A stretch of DNA of 64,000 nucleotides from Candidatus Eubacterium faecale (GTDB lineage: Bacteria > Bacillota > Clostridia > Oscillospirales > Acutalibacteraceae): contig DWXN01000005.1 of the NCBI GenBank assembly GCA_019119185.1, positions 45,951 through 109,950 of the forward strand, written 5' to 3'. The position numbers and the translations under genes are program-made. Shown here in pieces: positions 16,985-26,084 of the stretch. Positions within the stretch are counted from its first letter, which is position 1. Each line of letters starts with the position of its first letter. The notes below the pieces were generated by a model that made no database searches, had not been told where the DNA came from, and saw only the letters and a list, made by a program, of their open reading frames with translations.

Positions 16985-17194
16985 TTAAACTATGATTTTA
17001 TTTGCAATCGTGCGGCTGATGGCAACACGCGTGCCTTTCACGTTCACGATCAGATTGCCGCCAAGGCTGGATACAACGGTAACATCCGCGCCCTCTACAA
17101 AACCAAGGGATTCAAGGTGATGCCGTGTATCCTCTTTTCCCGTTATCCTGGCAATGGTCTTTTTCTCGCCGAAATCTGCCATGGAAAGAAACAT
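16985..17194 (-). CDS. feoA: FeoA-family protein
   Basis: HHLESLGF, GNLIVNVKGTRVAI. Confidence 0.88.
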   Translation of the reverse strand: MFLSMADFGEKKTIARITGKEDTRHHLESLGFVEGADVTVVSSLGGNLIVNVKGTRVAISRTIANKIIV

Positions 17195-17216
17195 ATTCGC
17201 ATCTCCTTATTATCAT

Positions 17217-17287
17217 GTTAGTTTGCGTTAACATTTGTTAGTTTTAACTAACATCACGGTAAAAAATATCGGTTAGCCCTTACTAAC
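17217..17287. promoter_or_regulatory. Three GTTAG-N6-(C/T)TAAC palindromic operators upstream of feo; a fourth copy at 16704-16719
   Basis: gttagtttgcgttaac 17217-17232, gttagttttaactaac 17237-17252, gttagcccttactaac 17272-17287. Confidence 0.75.
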
Positions 17288-17294
17288 CGATAAA

Positions 17295-17323
17295 ACTATA
17301 CCACAATTCAAAATGGATGTCAA
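17295..17323 (-). promoter_or_regulatory. SigA promoter of the feo operon
   Basis: TTGACA-17-TATAGT with TG extension. Confidence 0.8.
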
Positions 17324-17348
17324 CCTGTTTTTTACATTTTTAGAAAAT

Positions 17349-18131
17349 TCAGAATTGTTTTTTCGGCATATACATACCGCCAACAATCCGGTTCACCAGC
17401 CCGGCGGGCAGGATCTTTTGCAAAACGCAGAATACTTTGTATTTGCCGCCAAGGGTAGCAAGAACAGGCAGGCGCCGTTTCTGCGCGATCTTCACAATCC
17501 CTTCCGCCACCTGTTCGGGGCGCATACCGTTGATCTCGTCATTTTCCATAACTTTTACGCTGCGCGCAATTGCGCCGCCGTATACCTCGTCTCCGGCAAA
17601 ATCCTTTTGGCGCGCCGCCGTGAAGCCCGTTTTCACATCGCCGAGGCGAACGGCGCACACGGATATGCCAAACTGCTTTAGTTCGTTGGAAAGCGCAAGC
17701 GAAACGGATTCCACCGCCGATTTCGTTGCCGAGTAAAAGGACTGAAACGGAATGGAAAATACCGACGCCGCGGAGGAGATAAAGATCACGCGCCCCCGGC
17801 TTTCGCGCAGTTTTGGCAGCGCCGCTTTCGTAACGGCAATATGCGCAAAGAAATTCAGTTCAAACTGCGCGCGGATCTCGCCCATATCGGCAAACTCCAC
17901 GCATCCGGAAACGCCGAATCCCGCATTGTTGATCAGCAGATCGATCTTCTCTATTTTTGAAAACGCAGAATCTATATCAGCCTGATCCGTTATATCGCAT
18001 TTTATGTTTTCCGCTCCCGGCAAATCGCAGTCATGCCGCTGAAGGCAAATGACCTGCCAGCCCTCACGCAAAAGAACGCGCGCCGTTTCTTTTCCTATAC
18101 CGCCCGAAGCCCCCGTAATCACCGCAACCAT
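17349..18131 (-). CDS. Classical short-chain dehydrogenase/reductase
   Basis: TGASGGIG, NNAG, YSATK. Confidence 0.9.
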   Translation of the reverse strand: MVAVITGASGGIGKETARVLLREGWQVICLQRHDCDLPGAENIKCDITDQADIDSAFSKIEKIDLLINNAGFGVSGCVEFADMGEIRAQFELNFFAHIAVTKAALPKLRESRGRVIFISSAASVFSIPFQSFYSATKSAVESVSLALSNELKQFGISVCAVRLGDVKTGFTAARQKDFAGDEVYGGAIARSVKVMENDEINGMRPEQVAEGIVKIAQKRRLPVLATLGGKYKVFCVLQKILPAGLVNRIVGGMYMPKKQF

Positions 18132-18271
18132 AGTCTTTCCTCCGAACCCTCAAAAATGAAAACTTCCTATAAAAGCATGAATCAGATATAATATTTTTTC
18201 ATACCTAAGTATACCACTTACCCGGCGAATTGCAACAAAAAAGATCGGCTTTTATGCCGATCTTTTCAACA

Positions 18272-19312
18272 TTACTCATAATCATAATTCCAGAAAGAGA
18301 CGGAATAAAGCTCGCTGTTTTTAAACCGCAGTTCGGTATGATATCCGTTCATTTTCTCATAAGTATAGACGATAAGATCGCCGTCTGTATAGGTTGAGCC
18401 CCAGGTGATATTCTCTATATCCGAAAATTTGGTAAAACCGTTAAGTTCGCCGAATTTATACTTCTGTTTCTTTTCAAGGGTGTCATATTCCAAAGTGATC
18501 CTGTATATTTCATCGCTGCCGTAATAAGTGTAAATCTCCGCATCCGCAAAAGTATGCAGCACATAGGATTCAATATCCTGATTTGGCATCACTTCCCCGC
18601 CAAGGTAGTAAGCGGCTGTATATATATCCGGCAATAATTCTGTAAGGTCTCTTAAATATTGATTGTCAACAGACATCTTAACCAGTTCCTGATTTGTAAT
18701 ATCCAGCTGCCACATGGCATTTGGGTCACCGGCAGTAACCACAGTTTCAAGATATACATGATTACCCTGAAAAGTTATCGTTCCCTGCCCGGCGTTTCCC
18801 CAGCCGTCATCCTCAAAGGTAAACCTTGCCTTATCCTCATCCGCAACGGCTTTAATATGACTGATCTCTGCTACCCGGTTTGAAGGCGGCGCAGAGATCA
18901 GCGTAAGCGAAAGTTCAAACGAATCGTCAAAATCATCATACGAAAGCAGCCGCAGTTCAATGCCGCCGGTCTCCATAATGCTGCTGCTTGCGGAATTGTC
19001 GGAATCAAAATATACACCCGTATAACTTTCATAATCTATGCCGGAACCGTTTGAAACAGCGCCTTGCGAATTTCCGGAACCCCCGCGTATTGCCGGAACG
19101 CCGTATTTTACAAAAGCAAAAATTCCGGCCGCGATAACTGCCGCGCACAAAATAACAACTACGGCAGCCACGGCTTTTTTGACGGAACCCGCGTTTTTCT
19201 TGTGCTTATGATTTTTCTTTACATTCACCGTTTCAGTAAATCCGGTCATACAGTACGGGCAGAACTGCGCCTCATCCGGCAGTTCTTTACCGCAGTTTGT
19301 GCAATGCTTCAT
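18272..19312 (-). CDS. Zinc-ribbon, single-TM membrane protein with extracellular domain
   Basis: CTNC..CPYC at the N-terminus, Lys/His-rich stretch, TM helix, Gly/Ser linker. Confidence 0.75.
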   Translation of the reverse strand: MKHCTNCGKELPDEAQFCPYCMTGFTETVNVKKNHKHKKNAGSVKKAVAAVVVILCAAVIAAGIFAFVKYGVPAIRGGSGNSQGAVSNGSGIDYESYTGVYFDSDNSASSSIMETGGIELRLLSYDDFDDSFELSLTLISAPPSNRVAEISHIKAVADEDKARFTFEDDGWGNAGQGTITFQGNHVYLETVVTAGDPNAMWQLDITNQELVKMSVDNQYLRDLTELLPDIYTAAYYLGGEVMPNQDIESYVLHTFADAEIYTYYGSDEIYRITLEYDTLEKKQKYKFGELNGFTKFSDIENITWGSTYTDGDLIVYTYEKMNGYHTELRFKNSELYSVSFWNYDYE

Positions 19313-19434
19313 ATTGACTCCTCATATATAATCTGATTAAATTATACATCTTTGCGCATAAAAAAATCAAGCAATACAAAATACTGCTTGATTTTAGTTT
19401 ATGTATGTTGCCCTTTGCAGCAATTACGGTATTA

Positions 19435-19965
19435 TTAATTACAATAATATATTCCCCAGTTTTGGAAATCACTTAAAGCAGTACCGCCTGTTAACTCAGC
19501 ACTTTTTGAATCTTTATCATAATCGAATACCAATGTGCCGGAAGAGGTATTCCCGCTTGAAGTCTGGTAATCCAAATACACAGTGATTTCAAGATCGCCG
19601 TCGTCTTCTTTATCTTTTTCAACGGATGTGATGTTGTAATAATCAGCAAGCGATCCGAAATATACGTTCTGCACAGCGCCGAATGACGCGGCAGATTGCA
19701 AATCTGATGGTAGAACGCTGCATACAAGCACAGCATTTGCCTGCTCATCCGTTAACCCGTTTGTTGATCCCCCACCTGCATTAGCCGCTATTGCTATGAT
19801 CAGCACAATAACTATAGGAAACGCTATGTGCTTGATTTTGCTTTTCTTGGGCAGATCTTTAAACCTTTTATAATTTTTTAAAAACTTCAAAAATCTGCCT
19901 GTTAGAAATTCTTTGATTTTTAAGCCGGTTTTCGATACAGTGCTTTTGATATTTTCAGCATCCAT
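19435..19965 (-). CDS. Hypothetical single-TM membrane protein
   Basis: Basic N-terminus, TM IAFPIVIVLIIAIAA, acidic C-domain; likely ATG at 19965. Confidence 0.65.
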   Translation of the reverse strand: MDAENIKSTVSKTGLKIKEFLTGRFLKFLKNYKRFKDLPKKSKIKHIAFPIVIVLIIAIAANAGGGSTNGLTDEQANAVLVCSVLPSDLQSAASFGAVQNVYFGSLADYYNITSVEKDKEDDGDLEITVYLDYQTSSGNTSSGTLVFDYDKDSKSAELTGGTALSDFQNWGIYYCN

Positions 19966-20110
19966 TATTGATTTTCCTTTCCTCATAAGATATGCCGGCA
20001 TATTCAGCCTGTTGTTTCACTATATTTCACGGATTATATGTAACACAACAGATGGGGTATAAGCAATTATCTTTATAAAGATAATTAATTGAGACAGCCC
20101 TTTTATCACT

Positions 20111-20830
20111 CTATAAATATTTTGCGATTTCAAAAAAGTGCCTCATATAACAATCCACATTTCTGTCTTTTGAGATTTTTGGATTTTCCGATCTTTTTTG
20201 ATTCGGCATTTTGTAAGCCGTATGCCACATAGTGATAACTTTATCACCATATTTGGATCTTATTTCGTTTGCAAAATTTGTTTTTCCCAAAACTATAATA
20301 TAATCAGGATCAATCAATTCAATTTCCTTAAATATAAACTCTTTGTACCGCTGAACATAAGCAGGGAATCGTTTGACGTCAACGCTTTTGCCGCCTCCTC
20401 TTTTATTAAGGTTCATAAACGCAACGCTTTTAAGCGCTTTTTTATATTCCTCCTCGGTCGGCGTTTCACGGCTTTGTAAGTTGTTTTTATTAAAAAGGTA
20501 AAACGCCATTCGCCCCATTTTTTCTCTTTGCTTAGGAATATTGTCGTTTACTTTTCCCCCAATAAAATCTTTATACCAGCATATCTGATCATCTTCGCCT
20601 GACGGTCTGTCGTCCTGATAATCCAATATATTTGGTTCTTTCAGTATAAACAAAATTTTGCATTTTGCGTTTTTATAGCACTCTTCGTTAATAATTCCGT
20701 CTTTAATAAATGAATTTTTCTCTATTCCGCCAATAGTGGTTTTATAAAAATCTTTTTCATTATTTTGTTTTTCCTGCCATAATTTGAACAGGCTGTTAAG
20801 ATTGCTGCAGTTTGTTAATTCACCATGCAT
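20111..20830 (-). CDS. Uracil-DNA-glycosylase-like fold protein (putative)
   Basis: KILFILKEP, AFMNLNK, ELIDPDYIIVLG and WH motif order resembles the UDG superfamily; AT-rich. Confidence 0.55.
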   Translation of the reverse strand: MHGELTNCSNLNSLFKLWQEKQNNEKDFYKTTIGGIEKNSFIKDGIINEECYKNAKCKILFILKEPNILDYQDDRPSGEDDQICWYKDFIGGKVNDNIPKQREKMGRMAFYLFNKNNLQSRETPTEEEYKKALKSVAFMNLNKRGGGKSVDVKRFPAYVQRYKEFIFKEIELIDPDYIIVLGKTNFANEIRSKYGDKVITMWHTAYKMPNQKRSENPKISKDRNVDCYMRHFFEIAKYL

Positions 20831-20972
20831 TGCCTAATTACCTCTACTCAAAAAATCATTTGTTTTTCAGCACGCTGCCACAATATCCACAAACCCCGAT
20901 CTGGGTATCCGAACGTCTGTCTGCACTTACGATATTTTTAGCATTAAACCTTGCGGCTTTAAAGTTTTTCTT

Positions 20973-21893
20973 TTATAATTCAACATACGCCACATCGGCG
21001 CCTTCAGCCTGTTGTTTCATTGTATTCCACTGCTCGTCTGTAACACGGCGAATACCACATTCTATAAAATTATTATCATCAATAAAGAATTGTAATAGAA
21101 TACCATCTTTATAAAATCCTACAGTACCTTGGTTTATATAATCTAACATTTCAACATTGATGTCTTCTATCTCGTCATAATCTATAATTCCAAACGCGTG
21201 CAACGCATGACTAGCAACTAAAGCGGATAAAAAAACAGCATCACCTTCGTCGTTACCATAATTTTTCAGCATTTCGATATCAGCAACAGACCTGACTTGG
21301 TAAATACCAGAATCTTTTGTATCTATATAACAACCATACATGCCATGCCCGTTTTCAGATGTATAAGTATATGTAGTAACTGTATCGGTATCAGAAGCTT
21401 CAACATCCACCGTGTCTGAATATTCTAATAGCGAAGATTCGTTGAGTTCCTCGCCATTTTTGTCTTTCGATTGTTGCTGAAGGGTTGAATTAATTTCATT
21501 AATAAAATCATTGGGACTCATATTATAGGCATAGTAATAATCAGAAACACCGTCTTTACTGTCTAACAATCCCGATTCATAATAGATCCAACCGTCATTC
21601 TGGGAAACGCCGCCTGTCCCTTCAGAATCTTCTGAATAATCGGAAGTTACGGCGGAATTTTCATCTGCTGTATCAGTGTCATCCGAAAATACTGCCGCTG
21701 CGAATCCAATGATCATGGGAATGACAAACACCAAGATAAAAACGATAAGCAGCGCTGTTAAAACTTTCTTTTTCTTGGATTTTTTATTACTTTTGGTAAT
21801 CGCTTCGGAAGTATTGCCAACGGGCTGCCCGCAATTGCTACAAAACGATTCCGTTTCGTTTAATTCTTTACCGCAATTTGAACAGTATCTCAT
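20973..21893 (-). CDS. Zinc-ribbon, single-TM membrane protein with acidic extracellular domain
   Basis: CSNC..CSNC, KKSKKKK, TM helix, D/E/S-rich linker. Confidence 0.75.
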   Translation of the reverse strand: MRYCSNCGKELNETESFCSNCGQPVGNTSEAITKSNKKSKKKKVLTALLIVFILVFVIPMIIGFAAAVFSDDTDTADENSAVTSDYSEDSEGTGGVSQNDGWIYYESGLLDSKDGVSDYYYAYNMSPNDFINEINSTLQQQSKDKNGEELNESSLLEYSDTVDVEASDTDTVTTYTYTSENGHGMYGCYIDTKDSGIYQVRSVADIEMLKNYGNDEGDAVFLSALVASHALHAFGIIDYDEIEDINVEMLDYINQGTVGFYKDGILLQFFIDDNNFIECGIRRVTDEQWNTMKQQAEGADVAYVEL

Positions 21894-21993
21894 AAGCTTC
21901 CCCTTTCATAAGTCATTAATATATGTATTTCTGCAACAATTCTATACTAAAAAAAGAGTATCAAAACAAGTAAAAATACTACTATTTGTCATT

Positions 21994-22023
21994 ATTATAT
22001 ACATATAGTAAGTGTTTTGTCAA
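21994..22023 (-). promoter_or_regulatory. SigA-like promoter for the 21893 gene
   Basis: TTGACA-18-TATAAT on the minus strand. Confidence 0.55.
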
Positions 22024-22092
22024 GTTGATTTTGTTTATAATATTAGAGGACTAATATATTGATTAGCAGGACTTCTATTTTGGTGGTAAAAA

Positions 22093-22431
22093 ATGAAACG
22101 GATCAACAACAAAGCGGTAGGCAGGCGCATCAAAGAGCGCCGTATGGAACTTGGATACACGCAGGAACAGCTTTCAGAACTCTGCGGCATTTCCACATCC
22201 TATTTGGGGCACATTGAAAGAGGCGCGCGAACAATTTCCGTAAATATGCTTTATACGCTTTCAGAAGTGCTGAATATGAGTACGGACGAAATTCTGTTTG
22301 ATTCATTTACCACAGATGATTCGCTTTTGGTGCACGTAAGCGCCGTGCTTGAAAAATGCGACGACGAGAAGAAAAAACAATTCTTTTATAACTCGGTAAA
22401 AACGCTTGCAAGCCAAATAGATGAACTGTAA
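22093..22431 (+). CDS. XRE-family HTH transcriptional regulator
   Basis: GRRIKERR..TQEQLSE..ISTSYLGHIERG. Confidence 0.9.
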   Translation: MKRINNKAVGRRIKERRMELGYTQEQLSELCGISTSYLGHIERGARTISVNMLYTLSEVLNMSTDEILFDSFTTDDSLLVHVSAVLEKCDDEKKKQFFYNSVKTLASQIDEL

Positions 22432-22476
22432 AAAATTACCCGTATGCTCATTATAGAGCATACGGGTTTTAAAGTC

Positions 22477-23196
22477 TTAAGCCGCCGGCTTAATTTTATT
22501 AAACTGCTTTTTCAATTCAAAAACGGATGCATAGCGGTTATCCGGAATCGTTTCTATACATTTTTCTATGATTTTTCTGTATCTGCCCGGGTAAAGATAT
22601 GTAAGCGGGTGCTGCCCGGTAAGCAAAATATTCAGCAAAATCCCAAGAGCGTAAATATCGGTTCTGGCATCGGACTGATCTATGCCGTACTGTTCGGGCG
22701 CGGCAAATCCTATGGTGCCAAGCGCCTTTGTGTCGTTAGATTTATATCTGCTGAATATTCTTGCCGCCGAAAAATCAATCAGTTTTACCACGCCGTCTGA
22801 AGAAATCATTATGTTTTCCGGCTTTATATCCCGATGCACAATATTTTCAGAATGCAGCACTGCAAGCACCTCAAAAAGCTGATTCATGATATTTGCGGCG
22901 GCGGATTCCGAATAAGCCCCTTCGCTGAGCACATCTGCAACACTGATACCGTTTATATATTCTTCAACCACCAAACTTTTTTCGCCGTCAAACGATGCCT
23001 GATAGATCTTTGGCAGATGGATATTTACAATCTTTCGCACCAGCGCATACACTTCACACTGCCCGGTAAATTTTTTAAACACGATTTCCTGTTTTGTTTT
23101 TTTATGCCTGTATCTGAGCACAACAGAAGATTCCGTTTTTTTAAGCGCCTGTAAAAATTCAAATTCGCTGTTCAGCGCCTGTTCAAGCCATTCCGT
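22477..23196 (-). CDS. Small Hanks-type Ser/Thr protein kinase; frame open upstream of the track start, to an ACG at 23196
   Basis: VEEYING, HRDIKPEN, DFS, GTIGFAAPE, DIYALG; in frame for 25 codons upstream of the GTG at 23121. Confidence 0.85.
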   Translation of the reverse strand, partial: TEWLEQALNSEFEFLQALKKTESSVVLRYRHKKTKQEIVFKKFTGQCEVYALVRKIVNIHLPKIYQASFDGEKSLVVEEYINGISVADVLSEGAYSESAAANIMNQLFEVLAVLHSENIVHRDIKPENIMISSDGVVKLIDFSAARIFSRYKSNDTKALGTIGFAAPEQYGIDQSDARTDIYALGILLNILLTGQHPLTYLYPGRYRKIIEKCIETIPDNRYASVFELKKQFNKIKPAA

Positions 23197-23265
23197 TTTT
23201 ATTCACCTGCCGCCACTTGTTTTTTTCATTATAACATGATAGACTTTTTTAGGGAAGTGATTGAT

Positions 23266-23694
23266 TTGCCATCATTTAAAAAAAGCACGAATGAGTTGCT
23301 GAGCGCACTGCTTAAAAGCGCAAGCGTTAAAAATTATATTCAGGAAAATAAAACGGAACTTATAGACATCTCGCTCAGTGAATATCTGAATGCAGTGGTT
23401 GCAGAAAAGAACCTGAAGATCTCACAGATTCTAAAAGACGCACAAATCAATCAGATCTACGGCTACCAGATATTTCAGGGAAAGAAACACCCGTCACGGG
23501 ACAAACTGATCTCTATTGCCATAAGCATGAATCTGGAACTTGAAGATATGCAAAAAATGCTTAAGGCGCTTAAGTATCAGCCGCTTTACGCAAGAATTGC
23601 GCGCGACTGCGTCATTATTAAAGGCATTACAGACGGAAATTCCGTTTGCGAAATCAATGAAGAATTATACAACAACGGCTTTGATACACTATAA
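23266..23694 (+). CDS. HTH (XRE-like) DNA-binding protein divergent from the kinase
   Basis: YGYQIFQGKKHPSRDKLISIA; TTG start at 23266 preferred because the ATG at 23236 lies inside a predicted promoter. Confidence 0.7.
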   Translation: MPSFKKSTNELLSALLKSASVKNYIQENKTELIDISLSEYLNAVVAEKNLKISQILKDAQINQIYGYQIFQGKKHPSRDKLISIAISMNLELEDMQKMLKALKYQPLYARIARDCVIIKGITDGNSVCEINEELYNNGFDTL

Positions 23695-23831
23695 AAGCCA
23701 TAAAAACACGCACACATAAAAAAGCACGGACCCGCTGTTGCAGGCCCGCGCTTATGGATAAAATAATGTTAAGAAAAACAGGGCTTTTGCAAATCTGCGA
23801 AAGCCTTGTTTTTTTATTTCATGTATTTCGG

Positions 23832-24116
23832 TTACTGCTCAACAGGGTAAACAGAAACCTTTTTCTTGTTTTTGCCCATTCTCTCAAACTTAACCGTGCC
23901 GTCGATCAAGGCAAAGAGGGTATCGTCTGAACCAATGCCAACATTATTGCCGGGATGGATATGCGTGCCTCTCTGGCGGTAAAGGATATTGCCGGCAAGA
24001 ACAAACTGACCGTCCGCTCTTTTCGCGCCAAGGCGCTTGGATTCGGAATCACGGCCGTTCTTGGTTGAACCCATACCTTTTTTATGAGCAAAAAGCTGAA
24101 TATCTAACTTAAGCAT
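23832..24116 (-). CDS. rpmA: 50S ribosomal protein L27 with N-terminal Prp-cleaved extension
   Basis: LDIQLFA|[14 protein letters not shown]. Confidence 0.97.
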
Positions 24117-24434
24117 TTACTGCACCTCCGAAATTTTAATTTTGATGTTTTCAGGATAATCTTTCTGCAACTCGCTCAAATGGAGCAGCAGCCCTTTCAG
24201 AATATCCTGAGCCGGGATCGGATCATCTTTAATAACCAGTTTCAAATAGCCTTTCTCCGCCTCTGCCGCTGCGGAAAGACCGATCACATCCGTAATGGTG
24301 TTTGCCGCCATAAGGCAGGCGCTTGAAACGAACGCACACAGGATATCCTGCCCGCTCGGCGCGGTCAGCGCGTGGCCTTTTGAAACAAAGCCCGTGTAAA
24401 GATCATGCGATCTGAAAAATTCTGTTTCAATCAT
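24117..24434 (-). CDS. prp: Ribosomal-processing cysteine protease Prp (YsxB)
   Basis: GHA..DILCAFVS; lies between rplU and rpmA. Confidence 0.9.
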   Translation of the reverse strand: MIETEFFRSHDLYTGFVSKGHALTAPSGQDILCAFVSSACLMAANTITDVIGLSAAAEAEKGYLKLVIKDDPIPAQDILKGLLLHLSELQKDYPENIKIKISEVQ

Positions 24435-24439
24435 TTGAA

Positions 24440-24748
24440 TTAAGCGTTGATCTTGGTGATCTCAACCTTGGTATACGGCTGGCGATGACCCATCTTGCGC
24501 TTTTCGTTCTTCTTCGGCTTATAAGTAAATACAGTGATCTTCTTAGCCTTGCCGTTTTTAAGAACCTTGGCGGTAACGGTTGCCTTTGCGCAGTCTTTGC
24601 CGGTTTTGATGCCCTTGTCATTGCTTACAGCAAGAACGTTATCAAAGGTGACTTCGGCATCTGCCTCGGCGCCGAGCTTTTCAACGTAAACAACGTCTCC
24701 CTCGGAAACCTTATACTGCTTGCCGCCGGTTACGATAACAGCGTACAT
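24440..24748 (-). CDS. rplU: 50S ribosomal protein L21
   Basis: [21 protein letters not shown]. Confidence 0.98.
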
Positions 24749-24830
24749 AGATTTTACCTTCCTTTATTCAAACTCGCTATGGCAGGTGAACACGCGTTTC
24801 TTACATACCTGCAATATGCGGCTTAATAAT
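24749..24830 (-). promoter_or_regulatory. Possible L21 leader RNA
   Basis: Position upstream of rplU and a CACC...GCGAGU-like segment before the RBS; resemblance recalled, not computed. Confidence 0.4.
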
Positions 24831-24869
24831 TATATCATATAAAATAATAATGTCAAGATCTATTTTAAA

Positions 24870-25088
24870 TTATTTATTCACTTCGGGGTTGTCCGTGCGA
24901 CCTAAAATATAATCAGTTGAAACACCGTAAAAATCCGCAAGTTTTATCAATATATCCGACGGAATATCTCTAAGCCCTGTTTCGTAACGATAGTACTGCG
25001 GTTGTTTCATTCCAAGAAAAGACGCTACTTCTGTTTGAGTTTTATCGCTGTCCTCCCTCAAGTCCCTTATTCTTTTGTAAAAAGCCAT
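24870..25088 (-). CDS. Small XRE-family HTH regulator
   Basis: RIRDLRED..TQTEVA..YYRYETG..LADFYGVSTDYILGR; ATG at 25088 behind AAGGTG. Confidence 0.9.
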   Translation of the reverse strand: MAFYKRIRDLREDSDKTQTEVASFLGMKQPQYYRYETGLRDIPSDILIKLADFYGVSTDYILGRTDNPEVNK

Positions 25089-25101
25089 TTTGAACACCTT
25101 T

Positions 25102-25173
25102 ATAACTAATTGGTTATTGACACATTAGCATAAGTATGGTATATTCAAATTAAATTATAACCATTTGGTTATA
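25102..25173 (+). promoter_or_regulatory. SigA promoter flanked by two ATAAC-N6-GTTAT operators
   Basis: TTGACA (25117)-17-TATATT (25140); ataactaattggttat 25102-25117; tataaccatttggttata 25156-25173. Confidence 0.75.
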
Positions 25174-25196
25174 TAATTATGTCTGGAGGTTTTTAT

Positions 25197-26084
25197 ATGG
25201 ATGAAGATATTGAAAAAGAAATATTGAAATGTGAGGAAGAAATAAAAAAGGCTTGGAAAAAAGAGGAATTTTTTATTATATCATATTTTATATCTATAAT
25301 TGCTACTATATATATTTCTTATCGTCTCTTAGGGGATGGATATTTATCTGATTATTTAGCTGAAAAATGGTGGCTTAACTTAATTATTATAATAGTATTA
25401 ACTATTATATCATTAAAAGTTTCTTCCCCTTATTATGATAAGCGAAAAGCTGCTATGCAGAAAAAATTTGAATTACAAAATAAAAAGTCTATTGAATTGG
25501 AAGATAAAAGATACACCAGATACTTAAACGCTTATAAGAGGGACTGTTCAAAATATTCAAAATTTAAATCTTATAAGGGATTAAAAATCGGAGTGCTGGA
25601 TGGACATTTTATGATTATCAGCCTTACCCCTCCTAAAGAACCACAGCATAAAGATGATGGGATGAATATTAAATTAATTAATGCGGTTAAACATGTCCTT
25701 GATATACATCTTGATATACCTTTAAAAGATTTTATTTATTTCAAAAAAGAAGGTTCTGTGCAGTACACAACAGAAGTATCGGGAGGAGGAACTTCTCTTG
25801 GCGGCGCTATTATAGGCGGACTAATAGCAGGCGGCGCAGGTGCAATAATCGGCAGCAGAAAGTCCGTTAAATCTAAAACTGTTGAGCACGATAACAGAGT
25901 AACTATAATAAAAACAAGAAAAGGAGAATATACAGGAGAAGCAGACTTGTACAAGGTATTAATGAAAGTTGTTCCCGAAAAAGAACTAACTCAAATTCTT
26001 GTTACCGAAAAGGAAAATAATAATTCTGCCCTTTCAAACAACGATACCGCCACTTTGCAGGAAAATACAAGCAGTAACAAATAA
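25197..26084 (+). CDS. AT-rich hypothetical membrane protein with two TM helices and a glycine-zipper segment
   Basis: Two N-terminal TM helices; GGAIIGGLIAGGAGAIIG; ATG at 25197 behind GGAGG. Confidence 0.7.
   Translation: MDEDIEKEILKCEEEIKKAWKKEEFFIISYFISIIATIYISYRLLGDGYLSDYLAEKWWLNLIIIIVLTIISLKVSSPYYDKRKAAMQKKFELQNKKSIELEDKRYTRYLNAYKRDCSKYSKFKSYKGLKIGVLDGHFMIISLTPPKEPQHKDDGMNIKLINAVKHVLDIHLDIPLKDFIYFKKEGSVQYTTEVSGGGTSLGGAIIGGLIAGGAGAIIGSRKSVKSKTVEHDNRVTIIKTRKGEYTGEADLYKVLMKVVPEKELTQILVTEKENNNSALSNNDTATLQENTSSNK

What the first reader, a model, noticed from the sequence alone, without database searches (positions are those of the whole stretch)
18272..23694. Accessory island: zinc-ribbon membrane sensors, XRE regulators and a soluble kinase
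The block is more AT-rich than its flanks. It holds two CxxC-CxxC/TM/extracellular-domain proteins with unrelated ectodomains, a third single-TM protein, a UDG-like gene, an XRE divergent from the membrane genes, and a kinase/HTH divergent pair. The kinase has no TM or sensor domain of its own. One hypothesis is a split signalling system: variable ectodomain receptors signal through cytoplasmic zinc ribbons to the kinase, which phosphorylates the HTH regulators.
Basis: inference. Interest (0 to 1): 0.65.

Follow-up and report, generated by a model that had tools for sequence, protein, structure and literature searches.

The report
Split receptor kinase module in island
A small, strain-variable gene island in a gut Clostridia genome carries a conserved but undescribed signalling set (a membrane protein with a special zinc-ribbon tail, a stripped-down Ser/Thr kinase and a DNA-binding partner) that seems to split the job of a one-piece receptor kinase among separate proteins.

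Summary
All seven genes are real. The 5.4-kb block has 38.7% GC against 46.4% for the genome. It is missing from the same site in a related species, and its middle 2.6 kb is swapped out in strains of the same species.

The conserved core is the 346-aa zinc-ribbon membrane protein, the roughly 241-aa kinase and the 152-aa XRE-fold protein.

- In a sample of 399 Clostridia genomes, 47 of 63 homologues of the 152-aa protein lie within 400 bp of a Hanks kinase.
- 39 of 41 long kinases carry their own membrane segment(s).
- The short kinases form one clade, and all 17 short-kinase loci examined have a zinc-ribbon membrane gene nearby. That gene has a distinctive ribbon subtype, which the 346-aa protein has and the 306-aa protein lacks.
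- The 306-aa protein, the 188-aa membrane protein and the UDG-fold gene are strain-variable cargo.
- The XRE gene is a recurrent but optional neighbour.

Phosphorylation, docking and the signal are inferred, not shown. The kinase lacks a glycine-rich loop and a canonical start codon, yet it shows purifying selection.

This scan has noted the same kind of module on other genomes. I found no paper describing it.

The parts
18272..19312 (-). Z346: membrane protein with an N-terminal cytoplasmic zinc ribbon of the 'type A' subtype (C-x2-C, then L-P-D-E-A-x-F-C-x2-C-M), a Lys-rich linker, one TM segment (~res 50-68) and a ~275-aa orphan ectodomain. Proposed cognate partner of the kinase.
   Evidence: Pfam Zn_Ribbon_1 32.7 bits. 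TM segment. Retained in conspecific strains L019-L021. The ectodomain has no homologue outside the species among 5.8e9 clusters. It is the best hit of the type-A ribbon profile in the genus, though it was a training row (62 bits). The type-A motif occurs only 3 times in the six-frame genome.
19405..21970 (.). Strain-variable cassette (36.2% GC). In conspecific strains it is replaced by 848 bp holding two small TM ORFs.
   Evidence: blastn against L019-L021 keeps 17001-19404 and 21971-24834 at 96.7-98.4% identity, with no match between them.
19435..20001 (-). 188-aa single-TM protein (cassette cargo).
   Evidence: ORF. TM segment at ~59-77. Only a weak DUF4352 hint, E 0.08.
20111..20830 (-). 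239-aa protein with a distant UDG-superfamily fold (cassette cargo).
   Evidence: Pfam UDG 18.6 bits, below the cut-off of 24.3. Small family of 44 clusters with no Pfam domain. AF2 pLDDT 89.8. Foldseek top hits are family-4 UDG, UdgX, TDG and SMUG1. Flanked by a 68-nt imperfect direct repeat exactly 1000 bp apart.
20973..21893 (-). Z306: zinc-ribbon/TM/ectodomain protein with the generic ribbon (type B: C-x2-C-G ... F-C-x2-C-G). Cassette cargo, not the conserved partner.
   Evidence: Pfam Zn_Ribbon_1 32.2 bits. Absent from conspecific strains. Scores only 23.8 bits on the type-A profile, against 62.3 for Z346. Classified type B.
21994..22023 (-). Perfect sigma-70-type promoter (TTGACA-18-TATAAT) facing Z306, divergent from the XRE gene.
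   Evidence: 12 of 12 matches. It lies just inside the part shared with conspecific strains.
22093..22431 (+). 112-aa XRE-family regulator (HTH_3 plus a ~45-aa C-terminal extension). Optional accessory of the module.
   Evidence: HTH_3 E 1.4e-16. 4 synonymous and 1 nonsynonymous change against strain L019. Similar XREs lie beside HTH-like genes in L026 (35% over 101 aa) and L086 (33% over 94 aa). A different XRE subtype holds the same position in L013, L083 and L084.
22438..22467 (.). Hairpin that can act as a bidirectional terminator between the convergent XRE and kinase genes.
   Evidence: 12-pair stem followed by a T-run.
22477..23202 (-). Short soluble Hanks-type Ser/Thr kinase. The frame is open for 241 codons (called start GTG 23121 = 214 aa). 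Present: beta3 Lys43, HRD 123-125, DFS 143-145, activation-loop DT 157-158, APE 168-170. No Gly-rich loop and no TM segment.
   Evidence: Pkinase 118 bits, profile positions 26-198, with the extension; positions 57-198 without it. 45% identical to the ATG-started 241-aa L013 kinase over 237 aligned columns, including the extension. 6 synonymous and 0 nonsynonymous changes against strain L019, one of them in the extension. Motif positions.
23203..23229 (-). Eight-codon mini-ORF (ATG ... TGA) in frame with, and directly upstream of, the kinase frame. It also contains an AGGTG Shine-Dalgarno-like site.
   Evidence: Translation. Identical in four conspecific strains. Its role in starting the kinase is unresolved.
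23236..23694 (+). HTH-like partner: divergent XRE/Cro-C1-fold protein with extra N- and C-terminal helices. Thr18 is kept in 248 of 255 sequences. Likely true start is TTG 23266 (142 aa).
   Evidence: AF2 pLDDT 87.5. Foldseek hits to XRE HTH domains. Profile against PDB gives only XRE-type hits. Family size: 474 representatives at E<=1e-30. Residues 3-13 are gaps in at least 89% of 255 aligned sequences, and Thr18 is kept in 97%.

Best explanation
The island carries one copy of a conserved three-part Ser/Thr signalling module, plus unrelated strain-variable cargo.

The core has three parts:
1. Z346, a single-pass membrane protein. Its short cytoplasmic tail is a specialised ('type A') zinc ribbon. 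Its outer domain is a fast-evolving orphan.
2. A minimal soluble Hanks-type kinase.
3. A 142-152-aa XRE-fold DNA-binding protein, transcribed divergently from the kinase.

In most Clostridia the same HTH partner is paired with a one-piece kinase that has its own membrane segment(s) and outer domain. In one kinase clade the membrane part was lost, and a zinc-ribbon membrane protein is always encoded nearby.

Inferred mechanism:
- The ribbon tail recruits or activates the kinase at the membrane when the outer domain meets its signal.
- The kinase then phosphorylates the HTH partner. The candidate site is the near-invariant N-terminal Thr18.
- Phosphorylation changes the partner's DNA binding and so the expression of the locus.

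The XRE gene is a second, optional local repressor of the divergent membrane genes. Z306, the 188-aa TM protein and the UDG-fold gene are cassette cargo.

Shown: the gene linkage, the folds, the single origin of the short kinases, and purifying selection.
Inferred: docking, direction of signal flow, the phospho-site and the target genes.

My odds: about 0.8 that the three genes form a functional unit, and about 0.45 for the full mechanism as stated.
For: 1. Kinase/HTH linkage.
- Same-genus relatives carry HTH-like and short-kinase genes in that order with 4-nt overlaps. So does this genome's own paralogous operon on contig C6.
- Distant homologues, including an Olsenella-type genome, keep the pair.
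- In a 399-genome class sample, 47 of 63 strong HTH-like genes have a Hanks kinase within 400 bp. Three more sit one gene further off, and at least 4 of the rest are cut by contig or fetched-region ends.
- One kinase-less HTH-like gene is followed by a PP2C phosphatase.

2. Complementarity.
- 39 of 41 long kinases have TM segments.
- The 16 true short kinases form one clade nested among the long ones (SH-aLRT 88).
- 17 of 17 short-kinase loci have a zinc-ribbon/TM gene within 3.3 kb, against 11 of 41 long-kinase loci within 1.5 kb.

3. Enrichment.
- This 1.875-Mb genome has only 7 zinc-ribbon+TM ORFs, and 3 of them lie beside the two short-kinase pairs.
- Density is 15 per 130 kb within 1.5 kb of the pair, 5 per 221 kb further out, and 1 spurious hit per 161 kb in control loci.

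4. Ribbon subtype.
- The partners of short kinases share a type-A motif. The extra ribbon genes in the same loci and all 12 ribbon genes beside long kinases lack it.
- A type-A profile searched across 31 genus genomes ranks kinase-adjacent genes on top. Within G000-G024, the genomes with kinase positions on hand, 11 of the best 16 hits are kinase-adjacent. Five of those 11 were not in the training set. Only 1 of the next 26 hits is adjacent.

5. Same layout elsewhere. L013, L083 and L084 share the window's layout: ribbon genes, XRE, short kinase, HTH-like gene, type-A ribbon gene. L085 has the same layout without the XRE.

6. The genes are functional.
- The kinase shows 6 synonymous and 0 nonsynonymous changes against a conspecific strain.
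- HRD, Asn, the DF(S) Asp, beta3 Lys and APE are present.

7. Candidate phospho-site. Thr18 of the partner is Thr in 248 of 255 family members.
Against: - There is no experimental or structural evidence for any contact or phosphorylation.
- The short kinases have a single origin. The pattern 'short kinase goes with ribbon gene' is therefore one ancient event that was kept, not many independent events, and the Fisher p-value of 1e-7 overstates it.
- I defined the type-A motif from these same sequences. Only the held-out profile hits are independent.
- No ectodomain similarity links ribbon proteins to the outer domains of long kinases, so there is no domain-fission trace.
- In the window, Z346 lies 3.2 kb from the kinase with a variable cassette between them, unlike the tight operons elsewhere.
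- The kinase lacks a Gly-rich loop and has no canonical start codon.
- Several clade members, including this genome's C6 paralogue, have lost the beta3 Lys. Catalysis may therefore not be the conserved activity.
- The HTH partner shows 2 synonymous and 7 nonsynonymous nucleotide changes between strains.
- I found no shared operator in the window's intergenic regions.
Confidence: 0.5

Rival explanations
1. Output rather than input. The zinc-ribbon membrane proteins are variable surface proteins whose expression, or whose cytoplasmic tails, are controlled by the kinase/HTH pair. They would be regulon members or substrates, not sensors.
For: - The ectodomains are orphan, unrelated to one another and strain-variable.
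- Some loci hold several ribbon genes (L083 has four, L085 has four).
- Ribbon genes also accompany 11 of 41 kinases that already have their own TM and sensor part.
- The Lys/Ser/Thr-rich linkers next to the membrane could be phospho-acceptors.
Against: - The TM-less kinase clade always keeps exactly the type-A ribbon partner. The extra ribbon genes are of another subtype. This fits a dedicated docking partner better than a set of targets.
- The canonical operons co-transcribe the ribbon gene, the HTH gene and the kinase gene in that order.
Confidence: 0.2
2. Non-catalytic kinase. The short 'kinase' is a pseudokinase or scaffold (or, in this species, a gene with a crippled start). It binds the HTH partner as an anti-repressor, tethered to the membrane by the ribbon protein, without phosphotransfer.
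For: - There is no Gly-rich loop anywhere in the family.
- The beta3 Lys is replaced by Arg, His, Glu, Leu or Ile in many clade members, including the C6 paralogue.
- DFG reads DFS, DFN or DLS.
- This species has no ATG, GTG or TTG at the homologous N-terminus, in four strains. All 36 cluster members are called at a shortened start of 214-219 aa.
Against: - HRDxKPxN, the DFx Asp, the activation-loop DT...GT.GYAAPEQ and the subdomain IX Asp are kept throughout the family. The window's kinase also keeps Lys43.
- Strict purifying selection, 6 synonymous and 0 nonsynonymous changes.
- A PP2C phosphatase sits next to one HTH-like gene, which points to real phosphorylation.
Confidence: 0.15
3. Defence or toxin-antitoxin-like element. 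The kinase is a growth-arresting or abortive-infection effector (as in HipA, Stk2 or PD-T4-6), held in check by the HTH protein. The island is a defence islet, and the UDG-fold gene is a further defence gene.
For: - Canonical operons have the HTH gene before the kinase gene with a 4-nt overlap, as in HipBA.
- PADLOC kinase models PD-T4-6, mad6 and Stk2 hit at E 1e-25 to 8e-38.
- The island is accessory and AT-rich.
- Related loci sit beside ParE/Phd pairs, serine recombinases and a JetD-like gene.
Against: - The PADLOC hits cover only the generic kinase domain. The HTH partner and the ribbon proteins hit no PADLOC model.
- 39 of 41 relatives are membrane receptor-type kinases with outer domains, mostly divergent from the HTH gene. 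That is not a TA or Abi design.
- The kinase is a Pkinase, not a HipA-family protein.
- The own-genome paralogue lies among ordinary chromosomal genes.
Confidence: 0.1
4. Chance mosaic. The seven genes are unrelated accessory genes that merely accumulated in a permissive slot next to the rplU-rpmA operon.
For: - The middle cassette is swapped between strains.
- The slot is empty in G012.
- A second variable islet lies just beyond rplU.
Against: - The kinase, the HTH partner and the type-A ribbon gene recur together in many genomes and in several gene orders.
- The expected number of ribbon+TM genes in a 7-kb window of this genome is about 0.03.
Confidence: 0.05

Closest known systems
GlnH-GlnX-PknG-GarA/OdhI pathway of Mycobacterium and Corynebacterium (PMC6069109, PMC9769921)
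   Same: A soluble Hanks-type kinase has no membrane segment of its own. It is encoded next to membrane or extracytoplasmic proteins that convey an outside signal to it, and it phosphorylates a small dedicated regulator. A zinc-binding ribbon/rubredoxin element is part of the system.
   Different: - In PknG the rubredoxin and a TPR scaffold are parts of the kinase itself.
- The sensor is a solute-binding lipoprotein plus a four-helix membrane protein.
- The substrate is an FHA protein that controls an enzyme, not a DNA-binding protein.
- There is no sequence relationship to GlnH or GlnX. The only hint is a weak PknG_rubred hit on Z306 (E 0.005, below cut-off).
One-piece receptor Ser/Thr kinases (PrkC, PknB, StkP; PASTA type) and the TM kinases paired with the same HTH partner in other Clostridia
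   Same: The catalytic domain is of the same family (NCBIfam PknB_PASTA_kin domain hit, E 3.8e-37). The TM kinases beside HTH-like genes are the phylogenetic parents of the short clade.
   Different: There is no TM segment, PASTA domain or any other sensor domain, and no Gly-rich loop. The membrane and outer part is a separate gene product with a zinc-ribbon tail.
HipBA toxin-antitoxin (XRE-type HipB plus kinase HipA)
   Same: A small XRE-fold protein is encoded with a Ser/Thr kinase, in some relatives as an overlapping two-gene operon with the HTH gene first.
   Different: The kinase is a Hanks-type Pkinase, not a HipA-family protein. Most relatives are membrane receptor kinases. There is a third, membrane partner. 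Toxicity has not been tested.
Defence kinases Stk2 (Staphylococcus) and PD-T4-6
   Same: They are Hanks-type kinases found in accessory islands. PADLOC models for them hit the kinase domain.
   Different: Similarity is limited to the generic catalytic domain. The partner proteins are unknown to PADLOC. The family is mostly made of chromosomal receptor-type kinases.
Listeria monocytogenes Lmo0618 (putative protein kinase) with a divergent ~151-aa neighbour. This is a lead from an earlier scan report (e1-3018470).
   Same: According to that report the pair is a member of the same module. An lmo0618 mutant replicated about 11-fold less in Caco-2 cells (PMC3091722).
   Different: I could not test homology here because no Listeria sequence was on hand. 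Lmo0618 is 380 aa (PMC4379056), so it would be of the long type.
TcaA of Staphylococcus aureus (zinc ribbon, TM segment, ectodomain)
   Same: Same overall architecture as Z346 and Z306. There is a weak N-terminal NCBIfam hit (E 1.5e-3 and 2.8e-5).
   Different: Scores of 17-23 bits are far below the family cut-off of 550. Only the ribbon and TM part aligns. No kinase link is known for TcaA (from my own knowledge).

Membership tests
Hanks-type (eukaryote-like) Ser/Thr protein kinase, Pfam PF00069 | Whole-protein score above Pfam's gathering cut-off | tested here: met
   116.5 bits (214 aa) and 118.1 bits (241 aa) against a cut-off of 31.7.
Hanks-type (eukaryote-like) Ser/Thr protein kinase, Pfam PF00069 | Catalytic loop HRDxKxxN, Mg-binding Asp of DFG, and APE | tested here: met
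   HRDIKPEN at 123-130, DFS at 143-145 (Asp kept, Gly lost), APE at 168-170.
Hanks-type (eukaryote-like) Ser/Thr protein kinase, Pfam PF00069 | Beta3 (VAIK) lysine | tested here: met
   Lys43 aligns with the VAVK Lys of this genome's PrkC. It is lost in several clade members, including the C6 paralogue.
Hanks-type (eukaryote-like) Ser/Thr protein kinase, Pfam PF00069 | Glycine-rich loop GxGxxG | tested here: not met
   The aligned stretch reads KKTESS. The loop is absent from nearly the whole HTH-associated kinase family.
XRE / Cro-C1 helix-turn-helix family (the 152-aa protein) | Sequence match to HTH_3 or related Pfam models | tested here: not met
   No HTH family at E<=0.1 in Pfam or NCBIfam. 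A family profile gives only weak XRE hits in the PDB (best E 0.041).
XRE / Cro-C1 helix-turn-helix family (the 152-aa protein) | Five-helix Cro/C1-type fold | tested here: met
   AF2 pLDDT 87.5. Nearly all of the top 50 Foldseek hits are XRE-type HTH domains (DdrO TMt 0.82, rmsd 2.3 A; ClgR; C.Esp1396I; 434 Cro), with probability ~1.0.
Zn_Ribbon_1 (PF13240) membrane proteins | Four-Cys ribbon above the Pfam cut-off, followed by a TM segment | tested here: met
   32.7 and 32.2 bits against a cut-off of 25. TM segments at ~50 and ~44.
Uracil-DNA glycosylase superfamily (the 239-aa protein) | Pfam UDG score above the cut-off | tested here: not met
   18.6 bits against 24.3. No PDB hit by sequence.
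Uracil-DNA glycosylase superfamily (the 239-aa protein) | UDG alpha/beta fold | tested here: inconclusive
   The first 21 Foldseek hits are all UDG-superfamily enzymes (probability 0.84-1.0). TM scores are only 0.38-0.48 and rmsd is 7-8 A. I did not assess catalytic motifs.
HipBA toxin-antitoxin | Kinase of the HipA family | tested here: not met
   No HipA model among the Pfam or NCBIfam hits. The best hits are Pkinase and PknB-type.
HipBA toxin-antitoxin | Kinase toxic to the cell and neutralised by the HTH protein | not testable with these tools
   Needs expression experiments.
PknG / GlnX / GlnH system | Kinase with its own rubredoxin and TPR domains, with glnX and glnH neighbours | tested here: not met
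   The kinase is a bare catalytic domain. No solute-binding protein or GlnX-like four-helix membrane protein is present.
PADLOC defence kinases (PD-T4-6, Stk2, mad6) | Match to the system's models beyond the generic kinase domain, and presence of the system's partner genes | tested here: inconclusive
   Kinase-domain hits at E 8e-38 to 7e-25. The other six proteins have no meaningful hit, apart from generic XRE models.

The most novel reading that the evidence does not exclude
The type-A zinc ribbon is a portable docking tag. It plugs fast-evolving, interchangeable outer domains into one minimal cytoplasmic kinase. This would be a bacterial counterpart of receptor-associated kinases such as cytokine receptor/JAK, with a dedicated XRE-fold transcription factor as the phospho-target (Thr18). 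Species and strains could then re-tune what they sense in the gut by swapping or inventing ectodomains, without touching the kinase or the regulator.
Probability: 0.3. Interest if true: 0.8.

Novelty: new variant of a known kind. Interest (0 to 1): 0.6.

Why it matters
For most bacterial Hanks-type kinases, both the activating signal and the way phosphorylation reaches gene expression are unknown.

This family offers a compact, widespread case. The partner family has 474 representatives at E<=1e-30 among 50%-identity clusters. A kinase has a dedicated DNA-binding partner, and one clade has a separately encoded sensor. Input, kinase and output can therefore be handled as three small proteins.

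If the zinc-ribbon tail proves to be a kinase-docking tag, it would give a function to a subset of the very common 'zinc-ribbon domain-containing' membrane proteins of Firmicutes. It would also give a rule for finding their kinases.

The organisms are abundant gut and rumen Clostridia. The exact kinase sequence is seen on 230 public contigs.

Tried and rejected
1. Domain-fission trace. blastp of 26 ribbon/TM and related neighbour proteins against 45 long kinases found nothing at E<=1e-3.
2. Shared operator.
   - Repeat search, palindrome search in kinase/HTH intergenic regions of eight loci and 11-mer sharing among the window's seven intergenic regions gave no convincing site.
   - An 11-nt inverted repeat at 19363-19395 looks like a terminator.
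   - I therefore did not reproduce the 'conserved operator' reported by earlier scan reports on other genomes.
3. Z346 ectodomain. Only the species' own cluster turned up among 5.8e9 clusters, so I did not attempt a structure prediction.
4. Alternative genetic code for the in-frame TGA. Rejected, because neighbouring genes read full-length under table 11.
5. Frameshift or slippage at the A5 run upstream of the kinase. All four conspecific strains have the same five A's. The idea is unsupported.
6. The search for related loci with the family alignment failed because no stretch was conserved enough. The single-protein scan gave 10 named loci from Lachnospiraceae, Eubacterium and Clostridium MAGs. 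I did not analyse them further.
There are therefore no transcript data for the kinase start.
8. Literature. Full-text searches found no description of the kinase/HTH/ribbon module.
9. The Listeria Lmo0618 lead could be read about but not tested by sequence.
10. L065 looked like a second origin of short kinases. It is a long-type kinase cut by a contig end.

Full report
**What is there**

The window is contig C12:45951-109950 of a 1.875-Mb, 46.4% GC genome. By the name on a near-identical L21 protein, the genome is labelled Eubacterium sp. (MAG).

| Gene | Coordinates | Strand |
|---|---|---|
| Z346 | 18272-19312 | - |
| 188-aa TM protein | 19435-20001 | - |
| 239-aa protein | 20111-20830 | - |
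| Z306 | 20973-21893 | - |
| XRE | 22093-22431 | + |
| Kinase | 22477-23121, as called | - |
| 152-aa protein | 23236-23694 | + |

The island is 38.7% GC. The left flank is 50.7% GC and the right flank is 47.2% GC.

**Domains and folds**

- Both Z proteins pass Zn_Ribbon_1. Each has one strong TM segment after a Lys-rich linker, so the ribbon is cytoplasmic. Only their first 21 residues align with each other.
- The XRE gene is a standard HTH_3.
- The kinase is a clear Pkinase with no TM segment.
- The 152-aa protein has no family in Pfam, NCBIfam or PADLOC. Its AF2 model (pLDDT 87.5) is an XRE/Cro-C1 HTH with extra helices on both sides. Nearly all of the top 50 Foldseek hits are XRE-type domains; the DdrO N-domain scores TMt 0.82.
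- The 239-aa protein is below the Pfam UDG cut-off. It folds confidently (pLDDT 89.8), and its first 21 Foldseek hits are all UDG-superfamily enzymes, at modest TM scores of 0.38-0.48.

**Accessory status**

Four conspecific metagenome contigs (96.7-98.4% nucleotide identity) share 17001-19404 and 21971-24834. Where the window has 19405-21970, they have an unrelated 848 bp with two small TM ORFs. The 188-aa protein, the UDG-fold protein and Z306 are therefore strain-variable cargo. Z346, XRE, the kinase and the HTH-like gene are kept.

In G012, the one syntenic species of the genus, rpmA and the SDR gene are 155 bp apart. The whole island is missing there. Eighteen other genus members that I checked are not syntenic at this site.

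**The kinase gene**

- The minus-strand frame stays open upstream of the called GTG as far as an in-frame TGA.
- The 27 extra codons align with the N-terminus of the closest non-conspecific homologue, the 241-aa ATG-started L013 kinase. That kinase is 45% identical over 237 aligned columns.
- With the extra codons, the Pfam match extends from profile position 57 down to position 26.
- No ATG, GTG or TTG lies in that stretch. Upstream of the TGA sits an eight-codon ATG mini-ORF that contains an AGGTG. All four conspecific strains are identical here apart from one synonymous change.
- Against strain L019 the 241-codon frame has 6 synonymous and 0 nonsynonymous changes. The gene is under purifying selection and is not a pseudogene.
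- How translation starts is unresolved.
- Catalytic motifs are intact: Lys43, HRD 123-125, Asn, the DFS Asp, the activation-loop DT and APE. There is no Gly-rich loop, and this holds for nearly the whole kinase family discussed below.

**Kinase and HTH-like protein are a conserved pair**

- In the genus, short kinases of 236-247 aa (39-47% identical) are preceded by a homologue of the 152-aa protein with 4-nt overlaps (L003-L007, L009). In L010-L012, longer kinases are paired with the same protein.
- The window's own genome has a second, canonical copy on contig C6: ribbon/TM protein of 496 aa, then HTH-like of 141 aa, then kinase of 245 aa.
- The HTH-like family is large. There are more than 466 clusters at 90% identity. 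Among 50%-identity representatives there are 474 at E<=1e-30 and 2232 at E<=1e-10.
- Contigs carrying diverse members all showed a Pkinase gene next door, including an Olsenella-type genome.
- In an even sample of 399 genomes of the class, 127 had a match. I fetched about 5 kb on each side of 60 strong-tier matches, which held 63 HTH-like genes.
  - 47 genes have a Hanks kinase within 400 bp.
  - 3 more sit in the same cluster one gene away.
  - At least 4 are cut by contig or fetched-region ends.
  - 1 is followed by a PP2C phosphatase.
  - About 8 have no kinase.

**Short kinases go with zinc-ribbon membrane genes**

- Of 41 long kinases (280 aa or more) beside HTH-like genes, 39 have predicted TM segments.
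- A maximum-likelihood tree of 65 kinase domains puts the 16 genuinely short kinases in one clade (SH-aLRT 88), nested within the TM kinases. The seventeenth, L065, is a contig-end artefact. This means one loss of the membrane part, followed by deep divergence.
- Every short-kinase locus examined has a ribbon/TM gene nearby, 17 of 17: the window, C6, G002 (two loci), G005, G011, G012, G014, G021, G024, L013, L040, L041, L045, L083, L084 and L085.
- For long kinases the figure is 11 of 41 within 1.5 kb. The Fisher p-value of 1e-7 overstates the case because the short kinases are kin.
- Ribbon+TM ORFs are rare in the background.
  - The whole genome has 7, and 3 of them are at the two short-kinase loci.
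  - Control DNA gave 1 spurious hit in 161 kb.
  - Within 1.5 kb of the pair there are 15 in 130 kb.

**A ribbon subtype marks the cognate partner**

- The ribbon proteins immediately beside short kinases share a motif: C-x2-C-x3-[LIMV]-P-[DE]-[DE]-A-x-F-C-x2-C-[ML] ('type A').
- Z346 has this motif.
- Z306 does not. It has the generic C-x2-C-G ... F-C-x2-C-G form. The supernumerary ribbon genes of L083-L085 and all 12 ribbon genes beside long kinases also lack type A.
- The motif occurs three times in the six-frame translation of the genome: in Z346, in the C6 operon protein, and in an orphan paralogue on C9.
- I defined the motif from these same sequences, so I made a 35-column profile (A3) and searched 31 genus genomes.
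  - Kinase positions were on hand only for G000-G024, so I scored adjacency there.
  - Of the 16 best hits (E<=2.6e-9), 11 lie 1.4-3.3 kb from a family kinase.
  - Five of those 11 were not in the training set: G005:C326, G002:C6:117767, G021:C81, G000:C6 and G012:C36.
  - Only 1 of the next 26 hits is kinase-adjacent.
  - Z306 scores 23.8 bits against 62.3 for Z346.
- The closest non-conspecific loci (L013, L083, L084) repeat the window's layout. Ribbon or other membrane genes lie on one strand, an XRE gene is divergent from them, the short kinase is convergent with the XRE gene, the HTH-like gene is divergent from the kinase, and a type-A ribbon gene completes the set. L085 shows the same layout without an XRE gene.

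**The XRE gene**

- XRE genes of the window's subtype lie next to HTH-like genes in L026 and L086.
- A different XRE subtype holds the same position in L013, L083 and L084.
- The canonical operons have no XRE gene.
- I read it as an optional local repressor of the divergent membrane genes. A perfect TTGACA-18-TATAAT promoter (22023 to 21994) faces away from it.

**Mechanism**

The best-supported reading is a split receptor kinase. Z346 would be the membrane sensor or anchor, the short kinase the transducer, and the HTH-like protein the output.

A candidate phospho-acceptor is Thr18. It sits at the N-cap of the first helix, is Thr in 248 of 255 family members and Ser in 4. Residues 3-13 of the annotated protein are gaps in at least 89% of those sequences. 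Residues 1-11 are disordered in the model. The real start is therefore probably TTG 23266.

None of the contacts or the phosphotransfer is shown. Several facts keep the rivals open:
- There is no ectodomain homology to long kinases.
- There is no Gly-rich loop, and several clade members have lost the beta3 Lys.
- Strains differ by 2 synonymous and 7 nonsynonymous nucleotide changes in the partner.
- I found no shared operator.
- Z346 lies 3.2 kb from the kinase.

The rivals are that the ribbon proteins are outputs or substrates, that the kinase is a non-catalytic scaffold, or that the locus is a defence or TA-like element. The PADLOC hits to PD-T4-6, mad6 and Stk2 cover only the generic kinase domain.

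**Comparison with known systems**

- The nearest functional analogue is GlnH-GlnX-PknG-GarA/OdhI. There a soluble kinase takes its cue from neighbouring membrane and periplasmic proteins (PMC6069109, PMC9769921). The parts are not homologous, and the output there is an FHA protein.
- The module is a derivative of ordinary single-chain receptor kinases.
- It resembles HipBA only in pairing an XRE fold with a kinase.
- I found no paper describing it.
- Earlier reports of this scan describe the same kind of module on other genomes (e1-3652158, e1-3018470). I reached the same reading independently, before seeing them.
- Their Listeria Lmo0618 lead (PMC3091722, PMC4379056) and their 'conserved operator' could not be confirmed here.

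**Verdict**

The core module is real and conserved, half of the listed genes are cargo, and the mechanism is inferred.
- This is a new variant of a known kind of system, Hanks-kinase signalling.
- Interest: 0.6.

Noticed in passing
L087:2999-4069 (-), L088:2988-4013 (-), L089:2417-3418 (+): The weaker tier of hits to the HTH-like profile (E about 1e-9 to 1e-14) consists, in the three I inspected, of ~340-aa proteins. In them an N-terminal Macro (ADP-ribose-binding/hydrolase) domain is fused to a C-terminal copy of this same HTH-like domain. No kinase lies nearby. The domain therefore also pairs with a second kind of protein-modification enzyme.
   Followed up: partly
L038:4986-6222: One HTH-like gene without a kinase neighbour is followed directly by a PP2C-type Ser/Thr phosphatase gene (PP2C_2, E 5e-18).
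   Followed up: partly
window 23121-23229 (-): The kinase has no ATG, GTG or TTG at its homologous N-terminus. An eight-codon ATG mini-ORF ends in a TGA that is in frame with the kinase and contains an AGGTG. This is conserved in four strains. In one public variant an internal ACG is ATG, which gives a 219-aa call.
   Followed up: partly
window 19979-20046 and 20979-21046: A 68-nt imperfect direct repeat (72% identical) lies exactly 1000 bp apart around the UDG-fold gene. The right copy is the 3' end of Z306. The left copy runs into the start of the 188-aa gene. This suggests a cassette duplication or insertion event.
   Followed up: partly
window 24870-26084: The XRE gene and 301-aa membrane-protein islet just beyond rplU is also strain-variable. 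It is absent in L019 and L022, where rplU is followed by rpsO. In L020 it is replaced by a 72-aa XRE gene plus a 198-aa gene.
   Followed up: partly
G000:C6:43721-46384 (own genome, outside the window): A paralogous canonical operon (ribbon/TM protein with a repeat-like ectodomain, 496 aa; HTH-like, 141 aa; kinase, 245 aa). Its kinase has Glu in place of the beta3 Lys.
   Followed up: partly
G000:C9:180351-181847 (own genome, outside the window): An orphan type-A ribbon/TM protein (498 aa, 36% identical to the C6 one) with no kinase or HTH gene nearby. GNAT and sigma-factor genes resembling those that flank the kinase operon in G012 lie about 2-3 kb away.
   Followed up: no
G012:C36:8345-8434 with L009:2677-3570: In G012 the type-A ribbon piece lies in an open frame of only 56 aa, upstream of a 297-aa ectodomain-only ORF. 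The partner gene seems split or frameshifted there.
   Followed up: no
L083:1989-3317 (-): One of four ribbon genes in this related locus is a double zinc ribbon fused to a nine-TM PrsW-type protease domain. Another joins a ribbon to an SH3_3 domain. The range of ribbon-tagged membrane proteins around the kinase is therefore wide.
   Followed up: no
window 20111-20830 (-): The UDG-fold protein belongs to a small unannotated family (44 clusters at 90% identity, no Pfam domain). Its invariant residues include W18, D44, G45, E65, K143, G146 and H203.
   Followed up: partly
window 19363-19395: An 11-nt inverted repeat (AAAATCAAGCA / TGCTTGATTTT, 11-nt spacer) overlaps the -35 element of the Z346 promoter. 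It reads as a terminator for the upstream gene but could also serve as an operator.
   Followed up: no
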